A stretch of 64,000 bases of DNA, taken from assembly GCA_011772475.1 (NCBI GenBank), contig WVZK01000044.1:14727-78726 (forward strand). The letters are read 5' to 3'. The stretch comes from Candidatus Aminicenantes bacterium (GTDB lineage: Bacteria > Acidobacteriota > Aminicenantia > Aminicenantales > Aminicenantaceae). Position 1 is the first letter of the stretch. The number at the start of each line of letters is the position of its first letter. Below are positions 21,890-55,718 of this stretch, in pieces. Position numbers and translations under genes: made by a program. A model generated the notes under the pieces. The model saw only the letters and a list, made by a program, of their open reading frames with translations. It did no database searches and was not told the origin of the DNA.

Positions 21890-23116
21890 ATGAAAAGAAA
21901 ATTTATATTCTCAATTCTTTTTCTAGGAATTTGCGTTATAGCATCCGCTCAAGGCGATTCTTATCAAGGAGAGAGGCTATACCAACTTAAGTGTGGACGC
22001 TGCCATTTTGCCTATTCCCCTAGTAAGTATTCTGCTGAGGAATGGAAGACAATCATCAGCGAAATGGGCCCGCTTTCTGGATTAAACAAAGAGACCGAAG
22101 AAGTCATCTTGGATTACCTTCGACAGGAAGCTTCAAAAAAGGAAAGAGAGGCTCTGCCATCGAGTCCTGTCTTGGCTGGCTATGTTTACACTGAATTATT
22201 TTCATCTAAAGATATAACAGATACTTTTGACATCCACTATTTGAACATCAATCTAACGGGCCGAGTCCATGAAAGAATATCCTATCGCGCAGAATTTGAG
22301 TTTGAGCACGGAGGAGGGAAAGATGATCCCCCATTTATTGAACAGGCTTATATTGATGTATGGTTTTTGAAAAATGTAGGTTTAAGAATAGGGGCCATGT
22401 TGACTCCCTTCAATCGCTTTGATGAATTCCATGGTCCCTTAGAGAATCTTCTCGTCACCCGTCCCCAAGTGTCGAGGGAAATTGGAGTCAGTGCTTGGAA
22501 GGAAGTCGGTGTCAACCTTCATGGTAATCTCTTTATTAATAAAGATTTATACCTCAATTACGATGCTTATGTGATAAATGGGCTTGGCAGTGGAAGCCGA
22601 TTGAGAGGAAGTCGTCAATATCGAGACAATAACGATGCCAAAAGCTTTGGGGTTCGTTTAAGCGGAGTTTATTTAGATAGATGGGAAGTGGGTGCCTCAT
22701 ACTATAGGGGTGCCTGGGACGATGCAGGTGATTTCGATTTAAGCATTTATGGCTTTCATCTCATGGGAAAAATCGGTGAATTAAATCTTTTTGCTGAGTA
22801 TTCACGTTCCCTTTCTGAAAATCCAGATCCCTTTGAAGAGGGAAAAGCTGATGGGTATTTTATCCAAGCCTCTTACTTGATCAATGATAAATTCAGACCT
22901 ACGATCAGGTATGGAACTCTGGATTATTTGGACGGGGGAGGGCTCTTGGGTCGTAGCCCAACGGATTTCGATACCAGAGTCTTGGCCTTAGGATTCAATT
23001 ATTACCTCACTCGGGCCATTGTCTTTAAGATTGAATACGACATCGTTCAAGAGGGAGAAAGAAAAGAAGAGAAAGATAATAATCTTCTCGCCTTGCAAGC
23101 TGCAGTCAGGTTCTAA
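21890..23116 (+). CDS. outer-membrane porin-like beta-barrel (porin O/P-like) with an N-terminal monoheme cytochrome c domain
   Basis: 408 aa. Signal peptide MKRKFIFSILFLGICVIASAQ. Heme domain is GERLYQLKCGRCHFAY...EEWKTIISEMGPLSGL...EVILDYLRQ. The remainder has alternating amphipathic strands and ends in an aromatic residue (LALQAAVRF). Confidence 0.65.
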   Translation: MKRKFIFSILFLGICVIASAQGDSYQGERLYQLKCGRCHFAYSPSKYSAEEWKTIISEMGPLSGLNKETEEVILDYLRQEASKKEREALPSSPVLAGYVYTELFSSKDITDTFDIHYLNINLTGRVHERISYRAEFEFEHGGGKDDPPFIEQAYIDVWFLKNVGLRIGAMLTPFNRFDEFHGPLENLLVTRPQVSREIGVSAWKEVGVNLHGNLFINKDLYLNYDAYVINGLGSGSRLRGSRQYRDNNDAKSFGVRLSGVYLDRWEVGASYYRGAWDDAGDFDLSIYGFHLMGKIGELNLFAEYSRSLSENPDPFEEGKADGYFIQASYLINDKFRPTIRYGTLDYLDGGGLLGRSPTDFDTRVLALGFNYYLTRAIVFKIEYDIVQEGERKEEKDNNLLALQAAVRF

Positions 23117-34220: not shown

Positions 34221-34745
34221 TTATTCTGTTTCTGGAACAGGGTGTTTTATTTTCTCCCAAGCTGCATCAAAATCAAAACTTTTCTCATGGGCATTCTCAT
34301 GACAGGACAAGCAATGCTTTTTTATAGCGTCCGGCGATTCATAGGCGACCATTCCATTCGCCACAGACTCTTCTCTGCTTTTCATAATGTTTAGTTTTTT
34401 ATAAGCGCTCCCTGGGCCGTGACAGACTTCACAGGTGACTCCTTCCTCTTTAAAGTCAGCTGCTTTATCAGAAAGAGGAGCATGACAGCTAAGGCATTTG
34501 GGGCTTTCTACCGGATTTTCTACTCCTGCTTCTTGGGCCTTGGCAGACGCATCTGGAGAGCTTAAAGCCGCGAAAGATTTGGAATGTTTGCTCTCTTCCC
34601 AGATAGGAAATTGTTTTCCTCGTTTTTCACTCTTATGGCAGGTTTTACACTTTGCGGCCCCAACATACGTGAAATCCTGACCAAAAAGACTGATGATGAA
34701 TACAAAGGCAATGAGAACAATTGCGATAAATAGGACTTTTTTCAT
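34221..34745 (-). CDS. periplasmic tetraheme cytochrome c (c554-family-like)
   Basis: 174 aa with a signal peptide. Motifs are CKTCH, CLSCH, CEVCH, CLSCH. The RBS AAGGAGG lies just upstream. Confidence 0.8.
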   Translation of the reverse strand: MKKVLFIAIVLIAFVFIISLFGQDFTYVGAAKCKTCHKSEKRGKQFPIWEESKHSKSFAALSSPDASAKAQEAGVENPVESPKCLSCHAPLSDKAADFKEEGVTCEVCHGPGSAYKKLNIMKSREESVANGMVAYESPDAIKKHCLSCHENAHEKSFDFDAAWEKIKHPVPETE

Positions 34746-34791: not shown

Positions 34792-34806
34792 GCAAAATAT
34801 GTGCCA
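34792..34806 (-). promoter_or_regulatory. sigma-54 (-24/-12) promoter of the tetraheme gene
   Basis: The minus strand reads TGGCAC-ATATT-TTGCT, an exact match to the TGGCAC-N5-TTGCW consensus, about 45 nt upstream of ATG 34745. Confidence 0.7.
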
Positions 34807-42429: not shown

Positions 42430-43209
42430 ATGAAAGATATTTCCTTCCTCGCGAAGTGGGCAAAAAAATTTTGGAAAAAAGTCCCTGACCAGGTAGTACG
42501 TCTTTCCATACCAATATTGATATTAATCATTGGCTTCATTGTCATGAGAAATCTTCTTGTTCCTTCTGACTTCGGCAAGTATGGACATTTCCGAGCTGCT
42601 GCAATTGACGAATTAGTATCACAGGAAATACAATACAGCGAGCATGAGATGTGTTTTGAGTGTCATGATGATGTCGTAAAAGCCAAGAACATGTCCTATC
42701 ACAGAGGTGTGGAGTGCGAGGTGTGCCATGGTCCCGCAGCAGCCCACATTGAAGACCCAGAAGGCAATCAACTTCCAGCCCCAAGAGAGAGAGGCTACTG
42801 TCCACTCTGCCATGAGTATCTTCCATCAAGACCTACTGGCTTTCCTCAGATTGTTTCAGAGTCACATAACCCATTTAGAGCTTGCGTCTCCTGTCATGAT
42901 GCTCATGACCCGAAACCGCCTACTGTGCCGAAGGAATGTGAGGCTTGTCATGCTGAGATTGCTCGGACCAAGGCTCTTTCTCATCATGTTTACATTTCGT
43001 GTATCAGATGTCACAAAACCCCTAAAGAGCACAATATACGCCCGAGAGCTCATCGGCCTGAGAAACCAAGCACGCGGGAGTTTTGTGGGGAATGTCACGA
43101 TGAGAAGGCACCGAGTGCCAAAGGAGTCCCTAGGGTGAACATGGAGACTCACGGCGAAAGATATGTGTGTTGGCAGTGTCATTATCCTCACTTACCAGAG
43201 GCGCATTAA
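42430..43209 (+). CDS. membrane-anchored octaheme cytochrome c (c3-family-like)
   Basis: 259 aa. TM helix LSIPILILIIGFIVM. Motifs are CFECH, CEVCH, CPLCH, CVSCH, CEACH, CIRCH, CGECH, CWQCH. Confidence 0.78.
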   Translation: MKDISFLAKWAKKFWKKVPDQVVRLSIPILILIIGFIVMRNLLVPSDFGKYGHFRAAAIDELVSQEIQYSEHEMCFECHDDVVKAKNMSYHRGVECEVCHGPAAAHIEDPEGNQLPAPRERGYCPLCHEYLPSRPTGFPQIVSESHNPFRACVSCHDAHDPKPPTVPKECEACHAEIARTKALSHHVYISCIRCHKTPKEHNIRPRAHRPEKPSTREFCGECHDEKAPSAKGVPRVNMETHGERYVCWQCHYPHLPEAH

Positions 43210-43983
43210 ATGAAGGAAGCAAATATCGAAAGAAGAGATTTTTTGAAAAGACTTATCGTCTCAGTTCTTTCTTTTTCATCGCCCGGGCTACTTAAGGCCC
43301 AAGAAAAAAGTAAGGAAAGTACGTCACTTTATGAGAAAGGTTATGATCCAGAAGAACACCTTTGGGGGATGGGAATAAGGATAAATAGATGCATCGGGTG
43401 CGGACGGTGTGCTGATGCCTGCAAGAGAGAAAATGATGTACCAAGACTGCCCTTTTTTTTCCGTACCTGGGTAGAACGCTATATTATCCTTGAGGGAGAT
43501 GAAGTTGTTGTGGATAGCCCCACCGGGGGAGTGGATGGCTTCAAAACCCATGTCCAGGAGAAAAAATTAGTCAGAAGCTTTTTTGTGCCTAAATTATGTA
43601 ACCAGTGCGATAAGCCTCCGTGTGTCCAGGTTTGTCCTGTTGGTGCGACCTACAAGACTGAAGATGGAGTTACTCTTGTTGATTCAGAGTATTGTATAGG
43701 ATGTCGGTACTGCATTCAGGCCTGCCCCTACGGAGCTCGTTTTATTCATCCCAGGACCCATACGGCTGAAAAGTGCACTTTTTGTTATCACCGGATTGTA
43801 AAGGGCTTAATCCCCGCCTGTGTTAAAGTGTGTCCCACCCAGGCGAGGGTATTCGGAGATACAAAAGGAAGGGCTAGTCCTCTCGTTAGATTCATGCGCA
43901 TGAATAAGATACGAGTCCTTAAACCTTATCTCAACACAGAGCCCAAGGTCTTTTATGCCGGACTTGATATGGAAGTAAAATAA
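43210..43983 (+). CDS. Tat-exported four-cluster 4Fe-4S ferredoxin subunit (NrfC/HybA/PsrB-like)
   Basis: 257 aa. Twin-arginine signal ERRDFLKRLIVSVLSF. Cys groups are CIGCGRCADAC, CNQCDKPPCVQVC, CIGCRYCIQAC and CTFCYHR...CVKVC. The start abuts the previous stop. Confidence 0.88.
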   Translation: MKEANIERRDFLKRLIVSVLSFSSPGLLKAQEKSKESTSLYEKGYDPEEHLWGMGIRINRCIGCGRCADACKRENDVPRLPFFFRTWVERYIILEGDEVVVDSPTGGVDGFKTHVQEKKLVRSFFVPKLCNQCDKPPCVQVCPVGATYKTEDGVTLVDSEYCIGCRYCIQACPYGARFIHPRTHTAEKCTFCYHRIVKGLIPACVKVCPTQARVFGDTKGRASPLVRFMRMNKIRVLKPYLNTEPKVFYAGLDMEVK

Positions 43984-43985
43984 GA

Positions 43986-45179
43986 ATGGAAGAAATCGCT
44001 CACCAATTAGCACCAATCCTTGAACAGATAACCGGATATATCTATCCGAATGAGATCGAATTGCACTGGCGTATCCTCATCGTTGTCTACCCTTATATTA
44101 CGGGACTCGTTGCTGGTGCCTTCATCCTCGCTTCGCTGGTAAAAGTATTCAATGTTAGAGAGGTTCAGCCGACCTATCGTCTTTCTCTTCTTACAGCTCT
44201 TGCCTTTTTAATAGTGGCCCCTTTGCCGCTTTTGGCGCATATCGGACACCCTGAAAAATCCCTGGAGATATTCCTGACCCCAAATTTTAGCTCTGCCATG
44301 GCAATGTTTGGATTCATATACGCCTGGTACCTCATGGCAGTTTTATTGCTTGAAATATGGTTTGACTACAGAAGAGACCTCATCATCTGGGCTAAGAATG
44401 AGAAGGGATTGATGAAGTGGATACACAGGATATTCACCTTGTTTTCCACAGACACTTCAGAAAGAGCAGTGCGCTTTGATAAAAGATCAATAAAAGCCAT
44501 AACAATAGTTGGAATTCCTTCCGCCTTTCTACTGCATGGATATGTGGGATTTATCTTTGGTTCTGTGAAGGCCAATCCCTGGTGGTCAAGCGTGCTCATG
44601 CCAATTGTGTTTCTTTTTTCGGCGATTGTATCAGGAATTGCCCTGGTATTACTCATCTACATGGTAGTGACTCTGGTGCGAGGAAAAGAGATAAATATGG
44701 CCTGTCTGGATAAACTCGCAGGCTATTTGTTTTATACGATGATTATTGATTTCTCCCTCGAAGCTTTAGATTTCATTCACCGATTGTATGAGTCAGAGGA
44801 ATCCATAGAAATACTCTCCCAGCTGATCTCAGGAAGATTATTTGTGAGCCTTATCGTTATCCAGCTCCTTCTTGGAATGATATTGCCTCTAGCCGGGCTT
44901 TCTTCAGTCAAATTATTCCGGGTGCCAGCCGAATTAAGAAGGCATATCTACTTTGTCTCAGCTTTACTTGTTCAAGTTGGTATTTTTACGACTAGATGGA
45001 ATGTCGTTATTGGAGGACAATTGTTCTCTAAAAGCTTTAGAGGTCTTACGGCTTATAAGATGTCTCTGGGCGGGGTAGAGGGACTACTCGTATCTTTGGG
45101 TTTTCTTATCCTTCCTTTCATAGTTCTGTATATTCTCGTTAAAATTTTCCCCCCTTGGCAAGAAGCCAAACAGCCCTGA
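43986..45179 (+). CDS. NrfD/PsrC-family integral membrane quinone-interacting subunit
   Basis: 397 aa, about 8-9 TM helices. HWRILIVVYPYITGLVAGAFILASL is the typical NrfD-family first helix. Confidence 0.82.
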   Translation: MEEIAHQLAPILEQITGYIYPNEIELHWRILIVVYPYITGLVAGAFILASLVKVFNVREVQPTYRLSLLTALAFLIVAPLPLLAHIGHPEKSLEIFLTPNFSSAMAMFGFIYAWYLMAVLLLEIWFDYRRDLIIWAKNEKGLMKWIHRIFTLFSTDTSERAVRFDKRSIKAITIVGIPSAFLLHGYVGFIFGSVKANPWWSSVLMPIVFLFSAIVSGIALVLLIYMVVTLVRGKEINMACLDKLAGYLFYTMIIDFSLEALDFIHRLYESEESIEILSQLISGRLFVSLIVIQLLLGMILPLAGLSSVKLFRVPAELRRHIYFVSALLVQVGIFTTRWNVVIGGQLFSKSFRGLTAYKMSLGGVEGLLVSLGFLILPFIVLYILVKIFPPWQEAKQP

Positions 45180-45302: not shown

Positions 45303-46121
45303 TTAGGCATAGCTGTGCAGGCCAGCCAGAAGATAATTCACGCCGAAATAGGTGAAGAGAGCAGCTAAGAAGCCAAGGACGGCAATATAGGCAGATCTGC
45401 GTCCTTTCCAGCCCATTACGATCCGGGTATGGAGGTAGAGAGCAAAGACAAACCAGGTTATCAGACTCCAAACTTCTTTGGGGTCCCAGCTCCAGTAGCT
45501 TCCCCAAGCGTAATAAGCCCATATCATGCCAAAAACGAGGCCCCCTAGAGTAAAGAGTGGAAAGCCGATGGCGATACATCTGTAGCTGATAGAATCGAGT
45601 TTTTCTGACGATATTCCCGTTTTCTTGGCCTTGCCTTTTTTTTCTTTTGAATCAGCCACTAAATACATGATGCTGGTGACAAAAGCCAAGGCAAAGAAAG
45701 CTTCGCCGAGGAGTGTGACCGAGACATGGAGCCAGAGCCAATAACTCTGGAGGGCAGGAACCAGGGGGGTTGCCTCTTTTGGCATCAACGGAGAAGAAGC
45801 TAAAGCCATGATGGCTATAACGACCAGCATAAAAAGGGCTCCTGCTTTTCGAATCTTGAATTTCCACTCGATAATGACATAGGCGAGAATAGCACTCCAT
45901 GCAAGGAAGGAAAGAGATTCATACATATTGGTGAAAGGTGCATGTCCGCTTTCCACAGTTCTCATAATAAGGGCAGCAGTATGGAGAAGCAGCCCGATGA
46001 ACGCTATGCTAAAGCCTGTTTTGGCCAGATTTTCTTTTTTTGAAAAGAAGTAAGAGAAGTAGAAAAACGCTGCTAAGAAATAGAATATGAAGGTTACGAG
46101 AAATAGGGTTGATTCGCTCAT
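45303..46121 (-). CDS. ccsA: System II cytochrome c biogenesis heme-handling protein CcsA/ResC
   Basis: 272 aa and polytopic. WWD (tryptophan-rich) motif WGSYWSWDPKEVWSLITW and conserved His residues. Confidence 0.9.
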   Translation of the reverse strand: MSESTLFLVTFIFYFLAAFFYFSYFFSKKENLAKTGFSIAFIGLLLHTAALIMRTVESGHAPFTNMYESLSFLAWSAILAYVIIEWKFKIRKAGALFMLVVIAIMALASSPLMPKEATPLVPALQSYWLWLHVSVTLLGEAFFALAFVTSIMYLVADSKEKKGKAKKTGISSEKLDSISYRCIAIGFPLFTLGGLVFGMIWAYYAWGSYWSWDPKEVWSLITWFVFALYLHTRIVMGWKGRRSAYIAVLGFLAALFTYFGVNYLLAGLHSYA

Positions 46122-47470
46122 TTTGATCTCCTTAGGGAAGTCATGATTTTCTCGAATTCAGATTGAAAGGCATCCCGGTTTTTGGAAGCGATTCCTCCTG
46201 CAGTGACTTCTGTTTTCCCGTGGCTCTCTTCCAGAATAACTTTAACCTCTCGAATAGGCCAGTAAAAAGCCAGGGCAAGTCCTAACATTAAAAAGCCGCA
46301 TCCAATCCAAATAATGTTAACTCCTGGGTCTTTAGATGCCTGGATGACAGAGAATTGACTGGACTTGAAATCACGAAGTTCTAGAGTCAAATCCATTTCC
46401 TTTTCTGAGTGAATACGGGCAAAATCGGGAAATTTGGCAAAGATCCAGCCTGAAAAAATTCTCTGTTCGTCTTGCCATCCTTCTATGAAAGCGGCTGGAT
46501 TGTTAGGTTCATTCGAGCGGGATGTAATCTCATTTTTATCGTTAATAATGAAGTCAGGTAGAAAATGGAGGGCAATAAGTTGAATATCATCGTCCCCAAG
46601 ACTGACTCTCTGCCCAACTTTGAACTCTAATTTCCTCAAGAATGATGGGTCCTTTCTTTTTTTAACCCAGATTTCCAAAGAAGGACTTTCCCAGTCCCAG
46701 CCATAGCCACTCTGGTAAAACGCGAAACCTTGGTAGGCCAGGGGATGGTTAACCTCGACAATTTTGCTGAGCTGAGGTTTCTCATTTTCGAGGACTGTTA
46801 GGGTGCTCTTCCAGTCTCTAACCCTTCCATCAGGATAGAATTCAGTTTCGAACTTATCCAGTCTTACCTGAAAGTCGGCCTTGGGGACCGGGAGAACTTG
46901 TCCTTCAAAAAGAGTCAAGTCCGCTTTGAATCCTCCCAGACCGCTGATGATTCCCCCTGCGAGTATGATGAGAAGGCCGAGATGGACAATATCTGACCCA
47001 AACAATCCCAGAGTCTTCTTTCGAGCCAGCAGGAAGCTTCTAGCTTCCTTTTTTTCCTCTTTCAGACGATAATGCCTGGCGGAGAACTCCCTTCCCAACT
47101 CTTCTCTAGTCCTGGCCAAATTCCAGTTTTTCCTGAATTTCTCCCTGATTTTTAAGGAATTGATGTTTTTTGTCTCGAATCGAAGCCTTGGCTGAAAAAC
47201 TCTTTTAAATTTCGGAGAAAGTCGATTCAAGGTACAGATGATGATATTTAAAGAAAAAAGGAAAAGAAGGCCATTGTACCACCAGGAATGGTAGAGGTTT
47301 GTGAACTGGAGGCGGATGAGAAGGCCGGCCAGCTGACCATAGCGAACAGCATATTCGGCAGCACTCCTTTGTTGAGGAATCAAGGTGCCCAGGATAGAGG
47401 CGCAAGTGATGATGATCAACAACACTATGGCTAATTTTACAGAGCTAAAAAATTTAATTAAAGATTTCAT
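46118..47470 (-). CDS. ccsB: System II cytochrome c biogenesis protein CcsB/ResB
   Basis: 450 aa. N-terminus FFSSVKLAIVLLIIITCASILGTLIPQ, a large periplasmic loop and a C-terminal TM. There is a 4-nt overlap with ccsA. Confidence 0.85.
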   Translation of the reverse strand: MKSLIKFFSSVKLAIVLLIIITCASILGTLIPQQRSAAEYAVRYGQLAGLLIRLQFTNLYHSWWYNGLLFLFSLNIIICTLNRLSPKFKRVFQPRLRFETKNINSLKIREKFRKNWNLARTREELGREFSARHYRLKEEKKEARSFLLARKKTLGLFGSDIVHLGLLIILAGGIISGLGGFKADLTLFEGQVLPVPKADFQVRLDKFETEFYPDGRVRDWKSTLTVLENEKPQLSKIVEVNHPLAYQGFAFYQSGYGWDWESPSLEIWVKKRKDPSFLRKLEFKVGQRVSLGDDDIQLIALHFLPDFIINDKNEITSRSNEPNNPAAFIEGWQDEQRIFSGWIFAKFPDFARIHSEKEMDLTLELRDFKSSQFSVIQASKDPGVNIIWIGCGFLMLGLALAFYWPIREVKVILEESHGKTEVTAGGIASKNRDAFQSEFEKIMTSLRRSK

Positions 47471-47490: not shown

Positions 47491-48786
47491 CTAAATTCTT
47501 CCAGATAATAATGAATTCATCTCGTTATTGTTACTGTATCTAATGTTGTTCTGCTGATGGTTTTTACGCATCTCTTTGGCCGTGGCCTTGATCACACCCA
47601 AGGAACGCTGCATCTCACTCCATCCGTACCAGAGAGCATAATCAGGATTAGCGTGGAATGTTCCCTGGAAAGTTCTCATCCGGTGTTCTAGAAACATGAC
47701 AAACAGTTCTTGTTCGATGGCTGTGGGAGCATCATGGAAGGTCAGCAAGTCAGGGAAAGGATAGGAATAGTTTTCGGGTTTGGTGAGGAGACCATCCTTG
47801 TATAATCCGGCTACTATGCGTATAGCTTCTGCCATGAGGTAGTCTGCTTCTTTGATCATCTGATCACCCTTATCCAGCTCATTCTTAGCAAAATTCAGAG
47901 AATGGCATTGATTACATGTCTTGAGCATCTTATCTCGTTCTTGTTGCCAGTCTTCCTGGGTAAGCCTGGCGAGATCTGCTGCCTTGACGATATCGAGCCT
48001 TGCAGTAGGATTACCCTCTGGATCCAGGACTCCAAGACCTTGAAGGATTGTTACTCGGTCAGCAGTCCATTGCTCATCTTCTGGCATAGGAAGCCTGACC
48101 GCTAGGAATCCCCAGGCAGTTCTCACAGCATGATTCCCTTTTTCCATATGACAGGTCTGGCAGGTTGGTGCGGCCACTGTTTCTGGAAGCGTCTTGTTCT
48201 GCTTCAATAAATATCGAACGCCATGTTTAGAGCCTGAATACATCTCCCATTGAGGATGGTCGAAACCCATATGGCAGGTCTGACAGGCTTGAGGCTGCTT
48301 AGCTTCCTTCACCGAGAAGATATGACGGGTATGGCAGGCATCACAGGAGGCAACTCCGAAACCTGCCCCATCTTTTTTCAGTTCTGTTATCTCTTCTTTG
48401 GTCTTCAACCCGATCTTATGGCATCCTCCACATCCTTTCATTCCTTCCATCATAGCCATTGGCTGCCAGTGGGCGGTGGGCATAGCTTTCATAGCTGCCC
48501 AGGCGAAGGCATGCTTGCCTTTCTTGAATTGGGCTACTTTCTCATCATGACATTCAGCGCAGGTCTCAGGCGTAGGAATCTGCACTTTGGCCACATCATA
48601 GGAGTCTTTATGAGCTTCTCCGTGGCAGACTGAACAGTCAACTTCATTCTGGCTGTGCTTGCTCAATTGCCAGTCGGTAACGATATTAGGAGTAACATCC
48701 TTGTGACACTTCACACACTCCTGGGCGAATGCTCCTGTACAGAAAGCAATGCTTAAAAGGATAACAGCCATAGTTTTGTGATTCAA
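47491..48786 (-). CDS. octaheme cytochrome c of the hydroxylamine oxidoreductase (HAO) family
   Basis: 431 aa. The TTG start at 48786 is 6 nt after AGGAGGTGA. Signal peptide present. Motifs are CVKCH, CSVCH, CAECH, CGGCH, CDACH, CQTCH, CQTCH, CNQCH. CQTCHMGFDHPQWEMYSGSKHG and FHANPDYALWYGW are HAO-family signatures. Confidence 0.85.
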   Translation of the reverse strand: MNHKTMAVILLSIAFCTGAFAQECVKCHKDVTPNIVTDWQLSKHSQNEVDCSVCHGEAHKDSYDVAKVQIPTPETCAECHDEKVAQFKKGKHAFAWAAMKAMPTAHWQPMAMMEGMKGCGGCHKIGLKTKEEITELKKDGAGFGVASCDACHTRHIFSVKEAKQPQACQTCHMGFDHPQWEMYSGSKHGVRYLLKQNKTLPETVAAPTCQTCHMEKGNHAVRTAWGFLAVRLPMPEDEQWTADRVTILQGLGVLDPEGNPTARLDIVKAADLARLTQEDWQQERDKMLKTCNQCHSLNFAKNELDKGDQMIKEADYLMAEAIRIVAGLYKDGLLTKPENYSYPFPDLLTFHDAPTAIEQELFVMFLEHRMRTFQGTFHANPDYALWYGWSEMQRSLGVIKATAKEMRKNHQQNNIRYSNNNEMNSLLSGRI

Positions 48787-49139: not shown

Positions 49140-51254
49140 TCAGAATCTGTAGCCAAACCCAAAATAGAGAATGTGGTAATGTCCTGAGTCCTCATATCCT
49201 CCTGTAGCATGGATGACAAAGGCTTTATCTTTATAGTCTTCGTACTTCCATTTTCCAAACACCGAGACATTCTTCATGAGAAAATAGTCAGCTCCTGCCG
49301 AAATCCTGTAATGGGCAATATCCTGGTCACTGAGATCGGCCAGACCTGATGTGTCCTCTTCTATACCCTCAATTCCAGTTGAAACCCAATCTGATTTTCC
49401 TATAGTCATTGAAAAGTCACCGAATATGGAGAAATTGTCAGAGAGTCTGTAATCAAGAGCTACCAAGAAAACATTCACATTTTTGTTGTAAGGAACATCT
49501 TTATCTTCTCGGGCTATCCTTTGGCCTTGGTACTCGTATTGTGTCCCGTAGATGAGGCTGTTCACGATCTTCTCGTTTAGGTAAGTGTAGGCCGCAGTGA
49601 TTGAAACTTTGTTTGTCAGAGCATACCATAAACTAAAAACAATGTTATGTCTTTTTTGAGACGAGTCTATCTGGTCGTTTTTGCCTGAATTATAGAAGTA
49701 GTTCGCAGTGAGAGCAAATCTGTTAGCCGGGATTACCGAAACGCCTGCTGAGACTAGATGAATATCAGTGTACAAGCTGGTCATGAAACGTTCCGTGGTA
49801 GGATCAACAGGATTTTCTTCAGCCGAGTGGGGCACACCAAGGGGATTTTCTATGCTTTTTCCTTTGTAACGGAGAAAACCCTTTATTTTTGGAGAGGGAT
49901 AGAAAGTAACTCCCACACGATAAGTGGTGGTTTTCATCTCCTCGAGGTACTTATCCATGAGGTCTTTTTCTTCTTCTTCTACTTCTGAAGCCCAACTAAA
50001 ATTCCTTTTCAGGCTGTTGTAGTCTAATCCGGCTCTTAGGTGGATTTTCTGCTTGGGAATCCTGTAGGAAGCATCAGCCCCTATAGCGTATCCATCTGTG
50101 GATAAGTGGTTGGCCACAAGGGTACTTGTGTCAAAAGCATAGTCAGGATCTAGGTTGTTTTCATACTTGTTGTTTCCATATCTCAGCGTGAGGTTAAAGC
50201 CTTTACCCAAGAGGGCTCGAAACCGGGAGAGAAAATTCTTGATATCAGCTTCTCCGTTGTTATTCTTGTTCTTGACTTTGGCAATTGTGTAGCTTCCAAA
50301 GAGTGAAGCATTCTTTACCGCATCAACTTTAGCTTTGAGAGTATCAGCATTCTTCTCAGAATCCGGAATATGGGCAAATTCTTGAGTTCCTTCGAAAGGG
50401 AAACTGCCGTAAGGATTTGTATACTCATGGTATAAAGGGTTGGCTTTATTTTCAAAGCTCCGCCCCAGGTGAGAGTAACTTAAGGCTACACCCTTGGTTT
50501 TGAACTCAGCTCCTATGATGAAATCCCTGGTTCTCTGATCGATGGCTTGAGTTTGGGCCTCGATATGGCACACTGTGCACATCTCGAAGGTTCTTGCCTG
50601 TTGGGAACCATTTTCATGGACATATCTGACTTGGGATTTAATTTTTAAGTTGGGGATCGAGGGGATAACGAGATCTGTTTTGTTGATTATTTCGGTTCGG
50701 GTTGTAGAATAGACATCGTCAGGATTGCTGTCTACAAAAGGGAATTCATGTTGAGCCTCGGGATCTGGATCCACATTCGTTAAGGGGTCATGATCCAGGC
50801 GGTGGATGAATCGACTAGATTGGAATTCAGTTCTTACGATTCTTCCTATGTCAAGCCCAGCGTAATAGGCCTGTTCATCCTTGTGGTAGGACTTGCCCGA
50901 GAGGTTGAACAAGCTATTATCTCCCAAGAATCCCTTCAGTCCAAAACCAGCTCCAGCAGAGGAACCAACAGTGGAAAACTCTGCTGCTCTTCCGCCAGAA
51001 AGCCCTGAGACATTTAACGGCAAGTCGCTTTCATCAGTCAATAGAAATCTTTGGAAGACGGAGACGTGTCCTGAAATATCAGTTTTTGTCTCTTTGGCTG
51101 CTCCTTCTGGAGCTAAGGCAAAGCTCTTGAGCGCGGATTTGACCAATTCGCTCGGTGAGTGGACTGGATTATCGTTCTTTTTTGATTCAGCAAAGCTCGA
51201 AGAGAGGCTGATTATGCCGATGATGGCTACGATTACGATTATTTTTTTTCTCAT
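49140..51254 (-). CDS. MtrB/PioB-like large outer-membrane beta-barrel (porin partner of the decaheme cytochrome), containing one CXXCH
   Basis: 704 aa with a signal peptide. It has long alternating-strand architecture and a C-terminal aromatic (FGFGYRF). Its size matches MtrB/PioB/MtoB, and it lies 9 nt downstream of the decaheme gene. CTVCH is at residues 226-230 (50579-50565). Confidence 0.65.
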   Translation of the reverse strand: MRKKIIVIVAIIGIISLSSSFAESKKNDNPVHSPSELVKSALKSFALAPEGAAKETKTDISGHVSVFQRFLLTDESDLPLNVSGLSGGRAAEFSTVGSSAGAGFGLKGFLGDNSLFNLSGKSYHKDEQAYYAGLDIGRIVRTEFQSSRFIHRLDHDPLTNVDPDPEAQHEFPFVDSNPDDVYSTTRTEIINKTDLVIPSIPNLKIKSQVRYVHENGSQQARTFEMCTVCHIEAQTQAIDQRTRDFIIGAEFKTKGVALSYSHLGRSFENKANPLYHEYTNPYGSFPFEGTQEFAHIPDSEKNADTLKAKVDAVKNASLFGSYTIAKVKNKNNNGEADIKNFLSRFRALLGKGFNLTLRYGNNKYENNLDPDYAFDTSTLVANHLSTDGYAIGADASYRIPKQKIHLRAGLDYNSLKRNFSWASEVEEEEKDLMDKYLEEMKTTTYRVGVTFYPSPKIKGFLRYKGKSIENPLGVPHSAEENPVDPTTERFMTSLYTDIHLVSAGVSVIPANRFALTANYFYNSGKNDQIDSSQKRHNIVFSLWYALTNKVSITAAYTYLNEKIVNSLIYGTQYEYQGQRIAREDKDVPYNKNVNVFLVALDYRLSDNFSIFGDFSMTIGKSDWVSTGIEGIEEDTSGLADLSDQDIAHYRISAGADYFLMKNVSVFGKWKYEDYKDKAFVIHATGGYEDSGHYHILYFGFGYRF

Positions 51255-51263
51255 CTTGGTCTC

Positions 51264-52166
51264 CTATCTCATGAATCTTCCGGCGCCTGATAACGACGGA
51301 TTGTCGCTCCCGTGAATCTGGGAATGACAGTGAGTGCACCTGGTAAAGAAGCTGACGTTCCATGTTTGAAGACTCAGAGCGGGATGGCGTCGATCTTCAT
51401 GGCTAGTGTGGCACTGCATGCAGAGGAATGGTTCAGTCTGACGCTGGAGATGGTTGGCGATGCTTCCGTGCGAGTCGTGGCAAATAGCGCAGCTTTCAAC
51501 AACAGGAGCGTGCTCAAAAGTGAAGGGTCCCTGTTTTTCAGCATGACAGCTGAGACAGAGCTCGTTAAGAGTTTCAGCTTTGATGTTTCTTTCTCCTCCC
51601 CCGTGAGAATCATGGCAGGAAGAGCAGTTCATTTTTTTCTCGCGAATGGGGTGATGCGAGGGAAAATTTATTTGAGCTCTCTTGTCAGCGTGGCACTTGA
51701 AGCAGAGGTCAGGATCGTTCTTGGCTAATTGATTCTTGGCAGCGGTGTGAGAGCGATGACAGCTCGTGCAGGAGACACCGCTTATGTCATGGGAACTTCC
51801 AGGCCAGTTCATCTGCATTCCGCTTCGGTGACACTTCAGGCAAATCTCCCCAGCTTCGGTAGGGGAGAGTTCCTTCAGGCGGATAATCTTTTCCGGGTCT
51901 TCCTCTTCCACGTGCAGGCTTCCTGGACCATGGCAAGCTTCGCAGCCAGCGATTTTCCCCTTGAGTTCAAAATCAGCCAGTCTTCCGTGGATTGTTTTCT
52001 TGAAGGCTTCTCCGACTTCCTCATGACATTCCATACAGGTCTCTGAACCAACATATTCTCCTTCGGAAGCCGGCTCTACAGCGCAAAGAGAGGAATACAG
52101 GAAGAAAATACCAGTAAGAACAAAAGCGCAGGTGATGAGTCCAATCAGTAAACTGCTTTTTTTCAT
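51264..52166 (-). CDS. periplasmic decaheme cytochrome c, MtrA/DmsE/PioA/MtoA family-like
   Basis: The probable start is ATG 52166 (MKKSSLLIGLITCAF...) after AAGGAG; the listed ORF extends to 52244. There are 10 CXXCH motifs: CMECH, CEACH, CLKCH, CTSCH, CFKCH, CSSCH, CLSCH, CAICH, CMQCH, CTHCH. About 300 aa. The C-terminal CTHCHSQIHGSDNPS is typical of the family. Confidence 0.8.
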   Translation of the reverse strand: MKKSSLLIGLITCAFVLTGIFFLYSSLCAVEPASEGEYVGSETCMECHEEVGEAFKKTIHGRLADFELKGKIAGCEACHGPGSLHVEEEDPEKIIRLKELSPTEAGEICLKCHRSGMQMNWPGSSHDISGVSCTSCHRSHTAAKNQLAKNDPDLCFKCHADKRAQINFPSHHPIREKKMNCSSCHDSHGGGERNIKAETLNELCLSCHAEKQGPFTFEHAPVVESCAICHDSHGSIANHLQRQTEPFLCMQCHTSHEDRRHPALSLQTWNVSFFTRCTHCHSQIHGSDNPSLSGAGRFMR

Positions 52167-52261
52167 CTTCTTCTCCTTAGTGAAAATTTCCGATAAATTG
52201 AATGCACCAATACCTTGTTTTATTATTTTCTGTTTGATTCCCACCTCCTTTGTTCATTCTC

Positions 52262-52618
52262 TTAATCTAAAGCCTCTTTGACAAGCGTTTTCATCTGCTC
52301 AGCGTTGAAAGGTTTTTCGACGACTGAAAAGACGTTTAAAGTGCTCAATTGAGGCTCTATTTGGTATTTCGGGTGTGCCGATAAAATTACAATTTTCGTC
52401 GACGGCTGGATTTTATTGACTTCTTTTAACATATCAAGACCAATTTCTTCATCTATTTCTATGTCCGCAAAGATGAGATGATAAGCATCGTTTGAGGCCC
52501 GGCTCAAAGCATCCTTGGTCGTGGCCACAGTATCAACTTCGTATCCTTCTTGAGCGAATATTTCCCTTAAAGACCATCGAATAAGCTTGTCGTCATCAAC
52601 GACTAGAATTTTATACAT
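52262..52618 (-). CDS. single-domain response regulator (CheY-like receiver)
   Basis: 118 aa. KILVVDDD...FADIEI...ILSAHPK receiver pattern, with no output domain. Confidence 0.85.
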   Translation of the reverse strand: MYKILVVDDDKLIRWSLREIFAQEGYEVDTVATTKDALSRASNDAYHLIFADIEIDEEIGLDMLKEVNKIQPSTKIVILSAHPKYQIEPQLSTLNVFSVVEKPFNAEQMKTLVKEALD

Positions 52619-52639
52619 TTCAATCCACGGAAGAAGATA

Positions 52640-52654
52640 GCAATTTTTGTGCCA
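52640..52654 (-). promoter_or_regulatory. sigma-54 (-24/-12) promoter of the receiver / MtrA-like / MtrB-like operon
   Basis: The minus strand reads TGGCAC-AAAAA-TTGCT, an exact consensus match, about 20 nt upstream of ATG 52618. Confidence 0.7.
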
Positions 52655-52842: not shown

Positions 52843-54234
52843 TTACTCTGAAAAATGAAAGCGTTCGGGCGTGATATTGAATTTTTTAATCTTATAACGC
52901 AGAACATCTCGAGTAATGTTCAGTAATCTTGCGGCCTTGGTTTTATTCCCGTTTGTTTTTTTCAAGGCTTGAATCATCAGTTTTTGTTCCATATCGTACA
53001 GAGATAAGTTTTGGTCAGAAGTTTCGTCTAAGGAGCCTTCTGGAGATGAGAAAGAATCTCCGTTTAGATGAATGGGCAGATATTTGGCAGTGATTGAAGA
53101 ATTTTCTTCGAAGATCATGGCTCGTTCCACGGCATTTTTTAGCTCTCTGACATTTCCGGGCCAGTCGTATTCCAGAAAAAGCTTTTCTGTCTGCTTGTCC
53201 AATCCTTTAATGCTCTTTCTGAATTTTTTATCATAATGGAAAATGAAATGATTAGCTAAGGGCAGGATATCTTCCCTTCTCTCCCTTAAAGGCGGAATGT
53301 AGACAGGACAGACATTCAATCGATAAAACAAATCTCTCCTGAATTTTTCTTCTCTTGAGGCAAGCTCAATATCCTGGTTAGTGGCCGCTATGACTCGGAT
53401 ATCCACTTCGATATCTTTCAATCCGCCTACCCTCTTAAAAGAATGGATTTCCAGAAACCTCAACAGCTTGGCTTGGAGATGAAGGTTTAGAGTGCTTATT
53501 TCATCCAGGAACAAGGTTCCTCCGTCAGCCAGTTCGACTAGCCCTTTCTTCTGTGCCTTGGCGTCAGTAAAAGCTCCTTTTTCGTAGCCGAAGAGCTCGC
53601 TTTCCAGAAGGTTATCAGGAATGGCTGAACAGTTTATGGCGAGATAAGAGGCGTTTCTACGCCGGCTGAGATGATGAATGGCTTGAGCCAAGAGGTCCTT
53701 TCCAGTACCACTTTCTCCCTGAAGAAGAATGATAGAAGCTTCGCTTTCGGCAATCTTCTTGACCATTTCCAGGATCTGTTTCATTGCTTTTGAGTTGGTT
53801 ATAATCTGATCAGCATCAAATCTATTTTGTTCCTTTTCTTTGTAATAGGCGATTTCTTGTTTCAGAGAGGCAGCCTCCAGGGCGTTTTTTACAGTGTTCT
53901 GAAGCTTTGTGTAATCAATTGGCTTGGTGATGAAATCATAGGCTCCTCGGCGCATGGCCGTCACTGCATCTTCTATGACTCCGAAGCCGGTCATCATGAT
54001 GACCGGAAGCTCTGGCTGGGCCTTCTTTAATTCCATCAATAAATCCGTGCCTTTCTTATCCGGGAGTTTGACATCGAGCATCACGAGATCAGGTGTTTCT
54101 TCTTCTGCCAGGCGCAGGCCTTGAGCTCCGTTTTCAGCAGTAGAAGCTTCAAGGTTCCATTTGTTTAATTTCTGGCTGAGTGTCCAGCGGATGAGTTTTT
54201 CATCATCGACGATTAAGATCTTTTTTTTGCGCAT
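52843..54234 (-). CDS. sigma-54-dependent response regulator (NtrC family: REC + AAA+ + Fis-type HTH)
   Basis: 463 aa. ILIVDDE...MLDVKLPD receiver, Walker A GESGTGKD, ESELFGYEKGAFTDA (GAFTGA-type loop) and a C-terminal HTH (NKTKAARLLNITRDVLRYKIKK). Confidence 0.92.
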   Translation of the reverse strand: MRKKKILIVDDEKLIRWTLSQKLNKWNLEASTAENGAQGLRLAEEETPDLVMLDVKLPDKKGTDLLMELKKAQPELPVIMMTGFGVIEDAVTAMRRGAYDFITKPIDYTKLQNTVKNALEAASLKQEIAYYKEKEQNRFDADQIITNSKAMKQILEMVKKIAESEASIILLQGESGTGKDLLAQAIHHLSRRRNASYLAINCSAIPDNLLESELFGYEKGAFTDAKAQKKGLVELADGGTLFLDEISTLNLHLQAKLLRFLEIHSFKRVGGLKDIEVDIRVIAATNQDIELASREEKFRRDLFYRLNVCPVYIPPLRERREDILPLANHFIFHYDKKFRKSIKGLDKQTEKLFLEYDWPGNVRELKNAVERAMIFEENSSITAKYLPIHLNGDSFSSPEGSLDETSDQNLSLYDMEQKLMIQALKKTNGNKTKAARLLNITRDVLRYKIKKFNITPERFHFSE

Positions 54235-54236
54235 CC

Positions 54237-55718
54237 TTAATCTCCTTGTTGTAAAACCGGAAGTCGGATAAGAAAAGTGGTGCCTTTCCCTTCCTTGCTT
54301 TTCACTTGAATGGAACCTTGGTGGGCAGCAGTAATTTTCTTGCAGATGGAAAGACCGAGACCAGTGCCTCTGCTCTTGGTAGTGAAAAAAGGATTAAATA
54401 TCTGAGACAAGTGGTCTTTTTTTATCCCTTTCCCGTTGTCTTCAAATATAATTTCTAACTCTTTTTCATTCCTTTTGAGGAGCTTGATATCGATTTGACC
54501 TTTGTTATCTATGGCCGAAATACTGTTCAGCATGAGATTCAGCATGAGCTCTTGAATCTTGTCCGCATCTAGACGGGCTAGGGTGTTGTTAGCCAGTTTC
54601 TGAAAATGAAAGATGATATCTTTGCTTTTTTTTTGAGGTTGGGCGAGTTTGATGGCATTTTCTACACATTCGTTAGGATTAACAAGACTGAAGCTCATCT
54701 CTTTTGGCTTGGCATAGCTGAGGAGGTCCTGGATAACTTTATGCATTTTTTCGATTTGAAGCAGAATTTCATTAAATATTTCTTTCTTAGGGTCAGCGGG
54801 ATCGGTTTTTTGACCGATGATTTCCAAGGCTCCTTTCATTCCGGCGATGGGGTTTTTCATCTCATGAGCTAGCCCGGCAGCTAGCTCTCCTATGGAAGCC
54901 AGATGTTCAGCCTTTTCCATCTGCTGGCTATGCAGGTGTTCTATTTTTTGGTTAGCTTCGCGGAGCTTTTTCACCATGGCATTGAAGCTTTCAGCTAGGT
55001 TTCCGATTTCATCGTGTTTGACGACCGGAAATTGAATGTTCAAGTCTCCCTCCTGGACGGTCTTCATGTTGCCTTTTAATCGGGAAATGGGGCGATTGAC
55101 CAACTTTTCGAATAATCGGAGGATGATGAAGATGAGGATGGATATCGATACCAAGCCTATAAGAATACCCTTGAGCTGGCTTTTTTTAAGAAGAATGGCA
55201 GCAGCTGTATAATCGACGTTGATTTCTAAGATACCATTGATTTTCGCCTGAGGAGAATGGCAGGCATAGCATTCTTGTCTGTTTTCGATAAGACGAAAAT
55301 TCTGTATGGTTGATTTTGGCTTAAGGAAGTAGATATTAGATCTGGTTCCGTTCGAAAAAAGTTCTTTCAGTTTGTTTTGAATACTAGCTTCAGAGGAGCT
55401 CCCGATTTCATTCTCGTGAGAAGAGCGAAGTATCTTTCCTTCAGCAGAGATAATACGAATTTTTTTAATATAGCTGGAAGAGGCTGTTTGGCTGATGATA
55501 TCTTGAACTTCCTCTGGCTTTCCCTCTTTCATGGCCTGGAAAAGGCTGTTTTCGATCATCAAGCCTGCAACCTCAGCTTTTTGTCGGCTCACAGAGTGGA
55601 TGATGTTCCTCTGGCCTCTTAGATAGAGAACAATCAAGACAAGAGTTGTTATGATTCCGATGACTAACACATGGAGAATGACCTTATTCCTCAGACTCCA
55701 CTGCTTTAAGCTCTTCAT
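54237..55718 (-). CDS. sensor histidine kinase with a periplasmic c-type-heme motif, HAMP, HisKA and HATPase domains
   Basis: 493 aa. TM1 is VILHVLVIGIITTLVLIVLYL and TM2 is GILIGLVSISILIFIILRLF. CYACH (residues 150-154, 55271-55257) sits in the ~135-aa periplasmic loop. H-box is HEMKNPIAGM. G-boxes are present (GTGLGLSICKKI). Confidence 0.88.
   Translation of the reverse strand: MKSLKQWSLRNKVILHVLVIGIITTLVLIVLYLRGQRNIIHSVSRQKAEVAGLMIENSLFQAMKEGKPEEVQDIISQTASSSYIKKIRIISAEGKILRSSHENEIGSSSEASIQNKLKELFSNGTRSNIYFLKPKSTIQNFRLIENRQECYACHSPQAKINGILEINVDYTAAAILLKKSQLKGILIGLVSISILIFIILRLFEKLVNRPISRLKGNMKTVQEGDLNIQFPVVKHDEIGNLAESFNAMVKKLREANQKIEHLHSQQMEKAEHLASIGELAAGLAHEMKNPIAGMKGALEIIGQKTDPADPKKEIFNEILLQIEKMHKVIQDLLSYAKPKEMSFSLVNPNECVENAIKLAQPQKKSKDIIFHFQKLANNTLARLDADKIQELMLNLMLNSISAIDNKGQIDIKLLKRNEKELEIIFEDNGKGIKKDHLSQIFNPFFTTKSRGTGLGLSICKKITAAHQGSIQVKSKEGKGTTFLIRLPVLQQGD

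What the first reader, a model, noticed from the sequence alone, without database searches (positions are those of the whole stretch)
50565..50579. Canonical heme-c attachment motif (CTVCH) inside the MtrB-like outer-membrane barrel
The reverse complement of 50565-50579 reads tgc aca gtg tgc cat, which is C-T-V-C-H at residues 226-230 of the barrel protein (…ARTFEMCTVCHIEAQTQAIDQRT…). As far as I recall, MtrB-family proteins are known for an N-terminal CXXC, not for a full CXXCH. A covalently bound heme in the porin itself would make the sheath redox-active, or provide a fixed contact to the inserted decaheme wire. Together with the cytochrome-porin fusion at 21890..23116, this window encodes two outer-membrane barrels with heme-c motifs.
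Basis: seen in the sequence. Interest (0 to 1): 0.65.

Follow-up and report, generated by a model that had tools for sequence, protein, structure and literature searches.

The report
Conserved heme motif in MtrB-like porin
An outer-membrane barrel that sheathes a ten-heme electron wire carries its own strongly conserved heme-attachment motif on a long surface-side hairpin; this feature is already flagged in databases (GSU2204/OmcL family) but has never been tested experimentally.

Summary
CTVCH lies at window 50565-50579 (-), residues 226-230 of a 704-aa protein whose only two cysteines are in the motif. It is not chance. Among 171 relatives that cover the site, 169 keep C..CH (103 CXXCH, 66 with longer spacers), and the Cys/Cys/His columns are 94-99% conserved. 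AlphaFold2 gives a 26-strand barrel whose best structural match by far is MtrB (6r2q_B, TM 0.66/0.71). The upstream gene is a full-length MtrA homologue and sits next to the barrel in 30/30 related loci. Strand parity places the motif at the tip of a very long β7-β8 hairpin on the extracellular side, about 14 residues beyond the lipid-facing belt.

The feature is not new as a category. NCBIfam NF041027 is named "GSU2204 family CXXCH-containing (seleno)protein", Geobacter GSU2204 is annotated as a putative cytochrome c, and the pair is called the OmcKL conduit. The window protein belongs to an unnamed Aminicenantes sister clade: 267.6 bits against a cutoff of 350, and no Sec/Cys site.

My best reading is that the barrel carries an eleventh, sheath-anchored heme at the cell-surface end of the decaheme wire. 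Heme attachment itself is unproven.

The parts
49140..51254 (-). OmcL-like (GSU2204-related) outer-membrane protein, 704 aa, predicted 26-strand MtrB-type beta-barrel
   Evidence: ORF. NF041027 E=2.6e-79, 267.6 bits. AF2 pLDDT 77.9, pTM 0.70, 26 strands. Foldseek top hit MtrB 6r2q_B, E=4e-21, TM 0.66/0.71.
51189..51254 (-). N-terminal signal peptide (residues 1-22, MRKKIIVIVAIIGIISLSSSFA); no lipobox Cys
   Evidence: Read from the sequence. Predicted helix 2-20 followed by a low-confidence linker. Cleavage site is inferred.
50565..50579 (-). CTVCH heme-c attachment motif, residues 226-230, containing the only two Cys of the protein
   Evidence: Conserved in 169/171 family members. C226 94%, C229 99%, H230 99% among distant representatives.
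50496..50657 (-). Very long beta7-beta8 hairpin (residues 200-253) with the CXXCH at its tip; extracellular by strand parity
   Evidence: DSSP strands 200-225 and 229-253. Parity and loop lengths. The lipid-facing hydrophobic belt covers only ~200-211 and ~245-253. Same arrangement in P0200.
50775..50804 (-). HRLDHDPLTN motif (residues 151-160) at the top of beta5 and start of surface loop L3; candidate source of a distal heme ligand (H151/H155)
   Evidence: Invariant in A2. H151 82% and H155 84% among distant representatives. Any ligand role is inference only.
49449..49607 (-). Second very long hairpin, beta21-beta22 (residues 550-602). In sister clades its tip carries a Cys or selenocysteine; the window protein has Thr571 there
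51264..52244 (-). OmcK-like (GSU2203 family) MtrA/DmsE-type decaheme cytochrome, 10 CXXCH; obligate partner gene
   Evidence: NF041028 355 bits (cutoff 325) and TIGR03508 253 bits (cutoff 192). 6r2q_A (MtrA) E=1.3e-50 over residues 60-317. Immediately upstream of the barrel in 30/30 loci.
47491..48786 (-). Octaheme HAO/Multi-haem_cyto-like cytochrome downstream of the barrel; not conserved in related loci
45303..47470 (-). ResB (46118..47470) and CcsA (45303..46121): System II cytochrome c heme lyase, same strand, downstream
   Evidence: Pfam ResB 275 bits, Cytochrom_C_asm 189 bits. They directly follow the barrel gene in the closest locus, L001.
52262..52618 (-). Single-domain response regulator gene heading the gene string
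   Evidence: ORF. 17-nt gap to omcK.
52639..52654 (-). Perfect sigma-54 promoter consensus TGGCACAAAAATTGCT, about 20 nt upstream of the response-regulator start
   Evidence: One of only two zero-mismatch matches in the window.
52843..55718 (-). Sigma-54-dependent response regulator (52843..54234) and sensor kinase (54237..55718) whose periplasmic segment has a CYACH motif
   Evidence: Both are conserved upstream of omcKL in L001 (61% and 78% identity).

Best explanation
The 704-aa protein is the porin half of an OmcK/OmcL-type (MtrAB-like) two-component outer-membrane electron conduit. After Sec export, a c-type heme is attached in the periplasm to C226/C229, with H230 as the proximal ligand, by the System II lyase (ResB/CcsA) encoded downstream. 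The barrel then folds around the MtrA-like decaheme. The heme ends up on the long beta7-beta8 hairpin in the surface crown of the barrel, near where the decaheme's last heme emerges.

There it would act as an eleventh, sheath-anchored heme. This would be the surface entry or exit point for electrons, doing at least part of the job that a separate MtrC-type surface cytochrome does in Shewanella.

Shown: the motif, its conservation, the MtrB-like fold, the MtrA-like partner and their strict synteny, and the surface-side position outside the lipid belt. Inferred: that heme is actually attached, that it lies within electron-transfer distance of the decaheme, the identity of the distal ligand (H151/H155 are candidates), and the direction of electron flow.
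For: - The motif contains the only two Cys of the protein.
- C..CH is kept in 169/171 relatives. C226, C229 and H230 are 94-99% conserved and are among the most conserved columns of a family with 934 representatives at 50% identity.
- An MtrA/DmsE-type decaheme gene lies directly upstream in 30/30 loci from Aminicenantes, Acidobacteriota, Desulfobacterota-type and Planctomycetota MAGs. The window's copy matches MtrA (6r2q_A) at E=1.3e-50.
- The model is a 26-strand barrel and MtrB is by far the best structural match.
- All 12 even-numbered strand connections are 2-5 residues long, while the odd-numbered ones average 15. This matches MtrB's tight periplasmic turns and long surface loops (PMC7198977). 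The beta7-beta8 tip is therefore on the surface side.
- The lipid-facing hydrophobic pattern ends about 14 residues before the motif.
- The same architecture is seen in an independent model of a 25%-identical paralogue.
- Insertions of up to about 37 residues are tolerated between the two Cys in other clades, which fits an exposed tip loop.
- There is an N-terminal signal peptide, and the ResB/CcsA heme lyase genes lie in the same gene string.
- GSU2203 and GSU2204 are co-induced on iron oxides.
Against: - There is no experimental evidence of heme on any member of the family in the literature searched.
- I could not read model coordinates, so the distances from H230 to H151/H155, to the barrel axis or to the decaheme are untested.
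- Model confidence at the tip is low: pLDDT about 63 for residues 221-230 and below 50 for 188-193 in P0200. The hairpin may also sit differently once the decaheme occupies the lumen.
- A covalent heme on a surface loop would have to pass the outer membrane with the loop during BAM-assisted folding. I know of no precedent for this.
- In the Planctomycetota branch the Cys-Cys spacing varies from 3 to about 37 residues. This is unusual for a heme-c site and would fit a disulfide-closed loop as well.
- The local context is a beta-hairpin rather than the helical context usual for CXXCH.
Confidence: 0.55

Rival explanations
1. Heme is attached, but the hairpin folds into or over the barrel lumen and the heme serves mainly as a structural latch or assembly checkpoint. 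It would lock the decaheme in the sheath, or gate or sense its redox state, rather than being the surface-exposed terminal relay.
For: The hairpin tip is modelled with low confidence. AF2 modelled the barrel empty. MtrB surface loops fold over MtrA and cover all but heme A10 (PMC7198977). The invariant HRLDHDPLTN loop and conserved Arg/Tyr residues (R265, R417, Y260) could form a binding pocket inside the crown.
Against: A purely structural role would not need the full thioether plus His signature to be kept at 94-99% across phyla. The absence of a conserved MtrC-like third gene in 30 loci leaves a need for a surface redox site.
Confidence: 0.15
2. The C..CH site does not bind heme. The two cysteines form a disulfide that closes the hairpin tip (compare the CXXC of Shewanella MtrB), or Cys/Cys/His bind a metal ion, and the canonical spacing in this clade is incidental to that role.
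For: The Cys-Cys spacing varies from 2 to about 37 residues among clades while the CH pair stays fixed. The site is on the extracellular side, where heme delivery is mechanistically awkward. It sits in a beta-hairpin. Shewanella MtrB is known, from my own recollection of the literature and not checked here, to carry a functional CXXC.
Against: 103 of 171 members have exact CXXCH. The His immediately after the second Cys is 99% conserved, which is the hallmark of heme c and not of a disulfide. Extended CXnCH heme sites exist, e.g. MccA CX15CH (from my own knowledge). The protein always accompanies a multiheme cytochrome, and the heme lyase genes are in the same gene string in this clade.
Confidence: 0.2
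3. The motif is a chance occurrence in a porin that happens to sit in a cytochrome-rich region.
For: None beyond the abundance of CXXCH in the window.
Against: Expected frequency is 0.008 or less per protein. The motif is conserved in 169/171 relatives down to about 21% identity.
Confidence: 0.01

Closest known systems
GSU2204 / OmcL family (NCBIfam NF041027, 'GSU2204 family CXXCH-containing (seleno)protein'), paired with GSU2203 / OmcK (NF041028); the putative OmcKL conduit of Geobacter and ANME-partner sulfate reducers
   Same: Homologous over nearly the full length: E=2.6e-79 to the HMM, and 25% identity, E=3e-42, to the NCBI-named member P0200. The CXXCH is at the same aligned position, the HRLDHDPLTN motif is shared, the 26-strand architecture is the same, and the same decaheme partner lies directly upstream.
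   Different: It scores below the curated cutoff (267.6 vs 350 bits). It lacks the Cys/selenocysteine in the Gly-rich beta21-beta22 tip loop (Thr571). Its clade is annotated publicly only as 'hypothetical protein' or 'opacity protein-like surface antigen'.
MtrB of the MtrCAB complex (PDB 6R2Q chain B) and the MtrB/PioB/MtoB family (PF11854, TIGR03509)
   Same: 26-strand barrel with tight periplasmic turns and long surface loops. MtrB is the best structural match (TM 0.66/0.71). It is partnered with an MtrA-type decaheme. Relatives such as P0022 (59% identical) and P0200 pass the PF11854 threshold.
   Different: The window protein itself gives no PF11854/TIGR03509 hit and no sequence-level PDB hit to MtrB. 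MtrB has no CXXCH and binds no heme; from my own knowledge it has an N-terminal CXXC instead. No MtrC-type gene is conserved next to the pair.
Cyc2 / Cyc572 fused cytochrome-porins
   Same: An outer-membrane barrel polypeptide that itself carries a single CXXCH. An example is encoded in this same window at 21890..23116.
   Different: Cyc2 has the heme on an N-terminal domain ahead of a small barrel of about 16-18 strands, and works without an inserted multiheme wire (PMC8406198 and PMC10654088). Here the motif is internal, between strands 7 and 8 of a 26-strand barrel that sheathes a decaheme.

Membership tests
NCBIfam NF041027 GSU2204 family CXXCH-containing (seleno)protein | HMM score at or above the curated cutoff (350 bits) | tested here: not met
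   267.6 bits, E=2.6e-79, residues 86-565. True members score much higher: P0200 535 bits, P0141 503 bits.
NCBIfam NF041027 GSU2204 family CXXCH-containing (seleno)protein | CXXCH at the conserved position in the N-terminal third | tested here: met
   CTVCH 226-230 aligns with the family motif.
NCBIfam NF041027 GSU2204 family CXXCH-containing (seleno)protein | Cys or selenocysteine immediately after the end of the 'pt_1' model (G-[C/U]-G loop) | tested here: not met
   The window protein has Thr571 and no third Cys. Sec is present in L013, L014, L018 and L020; Cys is present in L007-L012, L015, L016, L021 and P0200.
NCBIfam NF041027 GSU2204 family CXXCH-containing (seleno)protein | Adjacent GSU2203-family decaheme gene | tested here: met
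   NF041028 355 bits, above the cutoff of 325. Synteny in 30/30 loci.
MtrB/PioB decaheme-associated outer-membrane barrel (PF11854 / TIGR03509) | Sequence-model hit above threshold | tested here: not met
   No PF11854 or TIGR03509 hit for the window protein, even at E<=10. Homologues P0022, P0026 and P0200 do pass PF11854.
MtrB/PioB decaheme-associated outer-membrane barrel (PF11854 / TIGR03509) | 26-strand beta-barrel fold resembling MtrB | tested here: met
   AF2 model with 26 strands. Foldseek top hit 6r2q_B, E=4e-21, TM 0.66/0.71, against 0.49 or less for the other matches listed. This is a predicted model, not a solved structure.
MtrB/PioB decaheme-associated outer-membrane barrel (PF11854 / TIGR03509) | Adjacent MtrA/DmsE-family decaheme cytochrome | tested here: met
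   TIGR03508 253 bits, above the cutoff of 192. 6r2q_A E=1.3e-50.
MtrB/PioB decaheme-associated outer-membrane barrel (PF11854 / TIGR03509) | N-terminal CXXC (Shewanella-type MtrB signature, recalled from memory) | tested here: not met
   The only Cys residues are C226 and C229.
Cyc2-type fused cytochrome-porin | N-terminal monoheme domain preceding a small (~16-18-strand) barrel | tested here: not met
   The motif is internal, between beta7 and beta8 of a 26-strand barrel.
c-type cytochrome (generic) | CXXCH in a Sec-exported polypeptide, with a cytochrome c maturation system available | tested here: met
   Motif. Signal-peptide-like N-terminus. ResB/CcsA in the same gene string.
c-type cytochrome (generic) | Heme covalently bound to the protein | not testable with these tools
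   Needs heme staining, mass spectrometry or a structure.

The most novel reading that the evidence does not exclude
The OmcL-type barrel is a redox enzyme in its own right. It would be a porin that displays a covalently bound heme on its extracellular crown, wired to the periplasm through the sheathed decaheme, so that two genes suffice for a complete trans-outer-membrane conduit with no MtrC-like surface cytochrome. In the sister clades, a selenocysteine or cysteine on the tip of the opposite long hairpin (beta21-beta22) would reach the same site as a heme ligand or catalytic partner. That would make a surface-exposed heme/Sec active site, which has no described precedent.
Probability: 0.3. 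Interest if true: 0.8.

Novelty: new member of a known kind. Interest (0 to 1): 0.45.

Why it matters
Models of porin-cytochrome conduits (MtrCAB, PioAB/MtoAB, Pcc/Ext) treat the barrel as a passive insulating sheath. A widespread family has a sheath that carries its own near-invariant heme motif on the surface side: 934 representatives at 50% identity, across Aminicenantes, Acidobacteriota, Desulfobacterota and Planctomycetota.

If heme is really attached, this would change how electrons are thought to leave or enter two-component conduits that lack an MtrC. It would also give a simple sequence marker for such conduits in metagenomes. At present this clade is annotated only as 'hypothetical' or 'opacity protein-like surface antigen'.

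It would also bear on the OmcKL conduit invoked for direct interspecies electron transfer in ANME consortia. There OmcK has been described as extracellular (PMC10553843), whereas the data here show it is an MtrA homologue that is probably inserted in the barrel.

Tried and rejected
- A profile search of alignment A1 against PDB sequences found no MtrB, only weak C-terminal OmpC-like matches. The MtrB relationship had to come from fold comparison and from PF11854 hits of homologues.
- The search for related loci with alignment A1 failed because no stretch was conserved enough. It worked with A2, but only through the LDHDPLTN peptide. Conservation of that motif in the 30 loci is therefore by construction, and Geobacter itself was not retrieved.
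- The second homologue search, with the A2 profile, returned the same 28 proteins.
- Model coordinates cannot be read with these tools. 3D distances (H230 to H151/H155, to residue 571, to the barrel axis) could not be measured, so placement rests on strand parity, loop lengths and hydrophobic pattern.
- No complex prediction with the decaheme, or with heme, was possible.
- SECIS-like hairpins after the in-frame UGA in L013, L014, L018 and L020 are present but not statistically strong (z from +0.65 to -1.7). I rely on the long read-through ORFs and the Cys/Sec alignment instead.
- Literature searches for heme-bearing MtrB-type porins found only Cyc2-type fusions.
- The term 'OmcL' mostly hit an unrelated clustering algorithm.
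- Chance occurrence and a lipid-embedded position were considered and rejected.
Full report
**1. The observation**

The reverse complement of window 50565-50579 reads TGC ACA GTG TGC CAT. This is C-T-V-C-H at residues 226-230 of the 704-aa ORF 49140..51254 on the minus strand. These are the only two cysteines in the protein. From amino-acid composition, a CXXCH is expected about 0.008 times per protein of this size using the cytochrome-rich ORFs of the window, or about 0.00016 times using the protein's own composition.

**2. What the protein is**

- Pfam sees only generic porin signatures in the C-terminal third (OMP_b-brl, Porin_4).
- NCBIfam gives a strong match to NF041027, "GSU2204 family CXXCH-containing (seleno)protein" (E=2.6e-79). 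The score of 267.6 bits is below the curated cutoff of 350.
- The gene immediately upstream (51264..52244) passes the cutoff of the partner family NF041028, "GSU2203 family decaheme", and of the DmsE/MtrA decaheme family TIGR03508. It aligns over its full length with MtrA of the solved Mtr complex (6r2q_A, E=1.3e-50).
- An AlphaFold2 model of the barrel (pLDDT 77.9, pTM 0.70) has 26 strands.
- Foldseek against the PDB puts MtrB (6r2q_B) far ahead of everything else: E=4e-21 and TM 0.66/0.71, against 0.49 or less (mostly 0.3-0.45) for the other matches listed, mostly TonB-dependent receptors.
- A sequence-profile search of the PDB does not find MtrB, and the window protein has no PF11854 hit. 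However, a 59%-identical homologue (P0022), P0026, and the NCBI-named family member P0200 all pass PF11854 (MtrB_PioB).

So "MtrB-like barrel" is right at the level of fold and partner, and indirectly at the level of sequence.

**3. Is the motif conserved?**

- In 17 word-matched homologues (87% down to 21% identity), C229 and H230 are invariant and C226 nearly so. The one exception carries CX14CH.
- In 30 loci from GTDB genomes (Aminicenantes, Acidobacteriota, delta-proteobacterial/Thermodesulfobacteriota MAGs, Planctomycetota), every intact copy has CXXCH or, in the Planctomycetota-type branch, C-Xn-CH.
- A profile search of 1.84 billion cluster representatives found 934 relatives at E<=1e-3 and 310 at E<=1e-30.
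- Of the 176 sequences in hand, 171 cover the site. Of these, 103 have CXXCH, 60 have CXnCH (n = 3-25), 6 have longer spacers, and 2 have nothing.
- Among the 154 distant representatives, C226, C229 and H230 are 94%, 99% and 99% conserved. They are among the most conserved columns of the family, together with G216, Q219, Y260, R265, R417 and P471.
- A second motif, HRLDHDPLTN (residues 151-160), is invariant in alignment A2 and 80-84% conserved among distant representatives.

The motif is therefore a defining feature of the family, not an accident.

**4. Where the motif sits**

I could not read the model coordinates, so placement rests on topology.

- The model has 26 strands and ends in the usual C-terminal aromatic residue (...GFGYRF).
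- The 12 even-numbered inter-strand connections are 2-5 residues long (mean 2.75). The 13 odd-numbered ones average 15 residues.
- This is the MtrB pattern of tight periplasmic turns and long surface loops that extend about 45 A (PMC7198977).
- The CXXCH is the beta7-beta8 connection, which is odd-numbered and so on the extracellular side. It forms the tip of a 26/25-residue hairpin.
- The alternating lipid-facing hydrophobic pattern of these two strands covers only about residues 200-211 and 245-253. The motif therefore lies about 14 residues beyond the membrane belt.
- An independent model of the 25%-identical paralogue P0200 (pLDDT 79.0, pTM 0.75) reproduces the 26 strands, the parity pattern, and the CXXCH in the beta7-beta8 tip loop.
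- Tolerance of insertions of up to about 37 residues between the two Cys in other clades fits an exposed tip loop.

Both were tested, and neither is met. Confidence at the tip itself is low (pLDDT about 63, and below 50 in P0200). This is expected for a cofactor site modelled without its cofactor and without the inserted decaheme.

**5. Context**

- The decaheme gene lies directly upstream of the barrel in 30/30 loci. In the Planctomycetota branch it is replaced by a larger cytochrome, 19-20 CXXCH where the ORF is complete. No third, MtrC-like gene is conserved.
- In the window, the minus-strand gene string runs: response regulator (52262..52618), omcK-like, omcL-like, an octaheme HAO-like cytochrome, then ResB and CcsA (System II heme lyase).
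- In the closest genome locus (L001), ResB and CcsA follow the barrel directly.
- A perfect sigma-54 promoter consensus lies at 52639-52654(-), just upstream of the string.
- Upstream of that are a sigma-54-dependent regulator and a sensor kinase whose periplasmic segment itself has a CYACH motif.

**6. Family substructure**

- In four loci the barrel ORF is interrupted by an in-frame TGA followed by 139-145 more codons. That TGA aligns with a Cys in nine other loci, within a Gly-rich [E/S/D]-G-[C/U]-G loop.
- The NF041027 model ("Se_pt_1") ends exactly there.
- 57 of 154 distant representatives are gene calls that stop at this point, so many family members are probably selenoproteins.
- In P0200 this Cys (C578) lies in the tip loop of the other very long hairpin, beta21-beta22. 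That loop is also on the surface side, 14 strands away from beta7-beta8 and so roughly opposite across the barrel mouth.
- The window protein has Thr at this position and no third Cys.

It therefore belongs to a sister clade with the heme motif only. Public sources annotate this clade as "hypothetical protein" or "opacity protein-like surface antigen".

**7. What is already known**

- The family is curated with CXXCH in its name.
- A 2026 selenoproteome review lists it as an MtrB/PioB-type outer-membrane barrel (PMC13188914).
- GSU2204 is annotated "cytochrome c family protein, putative". It is co-induced with GSU2203 (OmcK) on hematite and magnetite (PMC4070692).
- Murali et al. 2023 name the pair OmcKL. 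They propose it as a porin:cytochrome conduit in ANME-partner sulfate reducers, describe OmcL as the porin and OmcK as an extracellular cytochrome, and note the lack of an adjacent periplasmic cytochrome (PMC10553843).
- I found no paper that discusses or tests a heme in the porin. The fused cytochrome-porins described so far are Cyc2/Cyc572-type, with an N-terminal heme domain and a small barrel.

The data here suggest OmcK is not extracellular. It is a full-length MtrA homologue and is probably inserted in the barrel.

**8. Mechanism**

My best-supported reading (confidence about 0.55) is as follows. The porin is exported by Sec. It receives a c-type heme at C226/C229/H230 from the System II lyase. 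It then folds around the decaheme and presents its heme in the surface crown, near the exit of the decaheme chain. This would be an eleventh, sheath-anchored heme serving as the surface entry or exit site of a two-gene conduit.

Rival readings:
- A bound heme with a mainly structural, latching or gating role inside the crown (0.15).
- A non-heme disulfide or metal site (0.2). This is suggested by the variable Cys spacing in other clades and by the difficulty of exporting a heme-loaded loop.
- Chance (0.01 or less).

The most novel reading not excluded is a surface-exposed catalytic heme. In the sister clades it would be partnered or ligated by the Sec/Cys on the opposite hairpin.

**9. Verdict**

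The finding is real, non-random and mechanistically interesting. The kind of protein is already catalogued, so the window adds a divergent, unannotated Aminicenantes member rather than a new category. Heme attachment remains to be demonstrated experimentally.

Noticed in passing
window 52639-52654 (-); also 34791-34806 (-): These are the only two zero-mismatch matches to the sigma-54 promoter consensus TGGCAC-N5-TTGCW in the window. Both lie in intergenic DNA upstream of cytochrome gene strings. The first is about 20 nt before the response-regulator gene that heads the omcK-omcL string. The second is upstream of a 174-aa four-CXXCH ORF (34221..34745).
   Followed up: partly
window 54237-55718 (-): The sensor histidine kinase has a CYACH motif at residues 150-154, between its two predicted membrane segments. 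It is a candidate periplasmic heme-c redox sensor. The kinase and the adjacent sigma-54 regulator are conserved upstream of omcKL in L001 (61% and 78% identity).
   Followed up: partly
window 21890-23116 (+): A 408-aa protein with an N-terminal c-type heme domain (DHC-like, residues 31-87) fused to a porin (Porin_O_P/Porin_4, residues 108-383).
   Followed up: partly
window 42430-45179 (+): A multiheme cytochrome (259 aa), a 4Fe-4S protein (257 aa) and an NrfD-type membrane subunit (397 aa). This looks like an inner-membrane quinol:cytochrome module, encoded on the opposite strand and ending next to the 3' end of the omcKL gene string. The window as a whole is very rich in multiheme cytochromes: 17 ORFs with CXXCH, with up to 17 motifs in one ORF.
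   Followed up: no
L013 7441, L014 7441, L018 7297, L020 7588 (in-frame TGA): Sister-clade barrels have an in-frame UGA, followed by 139-145 more codons, that aligns with Cys in nine other loci (G-[C/U]-G loop). A small hairpin about 18-20 nt downstream is shared but statistically weak. 57 of 154 distant family representatives are gene calls truncated at this point, so many database entries for this family are probably mis-called selenoproteins.
   Followed up: partly
L019, L023, L024, L029 and representatives P0027-P0099: The Planctomycetota-type branch replaces CXXCH by C-Xn-CH, with n from 3 to about 37 (often H-C-[FY]...C-H). Its partner is a cytochrome with 19-20 CXXCH where the ORF is complete, instead of a decaheme. 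Whether such variable spacers can still receive heme is unexplained.
   Followed up: partly
L017 5779-6387: One MAG (HOU_bin.0035) has a second, disrupted copy of the barrel. It is a 206-codon ORF whose motif region reads CLSCCCK. It sits next to an intact decaheme gene, in addition to an intact pair at L011. It may be a pseudogene or an assembly error.
   Followed up: no
PDB 6r2q chain A: The local PDB table names chain A of the Mtr complex 'Cystathionine beta-synthase', although the aligned sequence is the decaheme MtrA. This looks like a labelling error in the table, not a biological finding.
   Followed up: no
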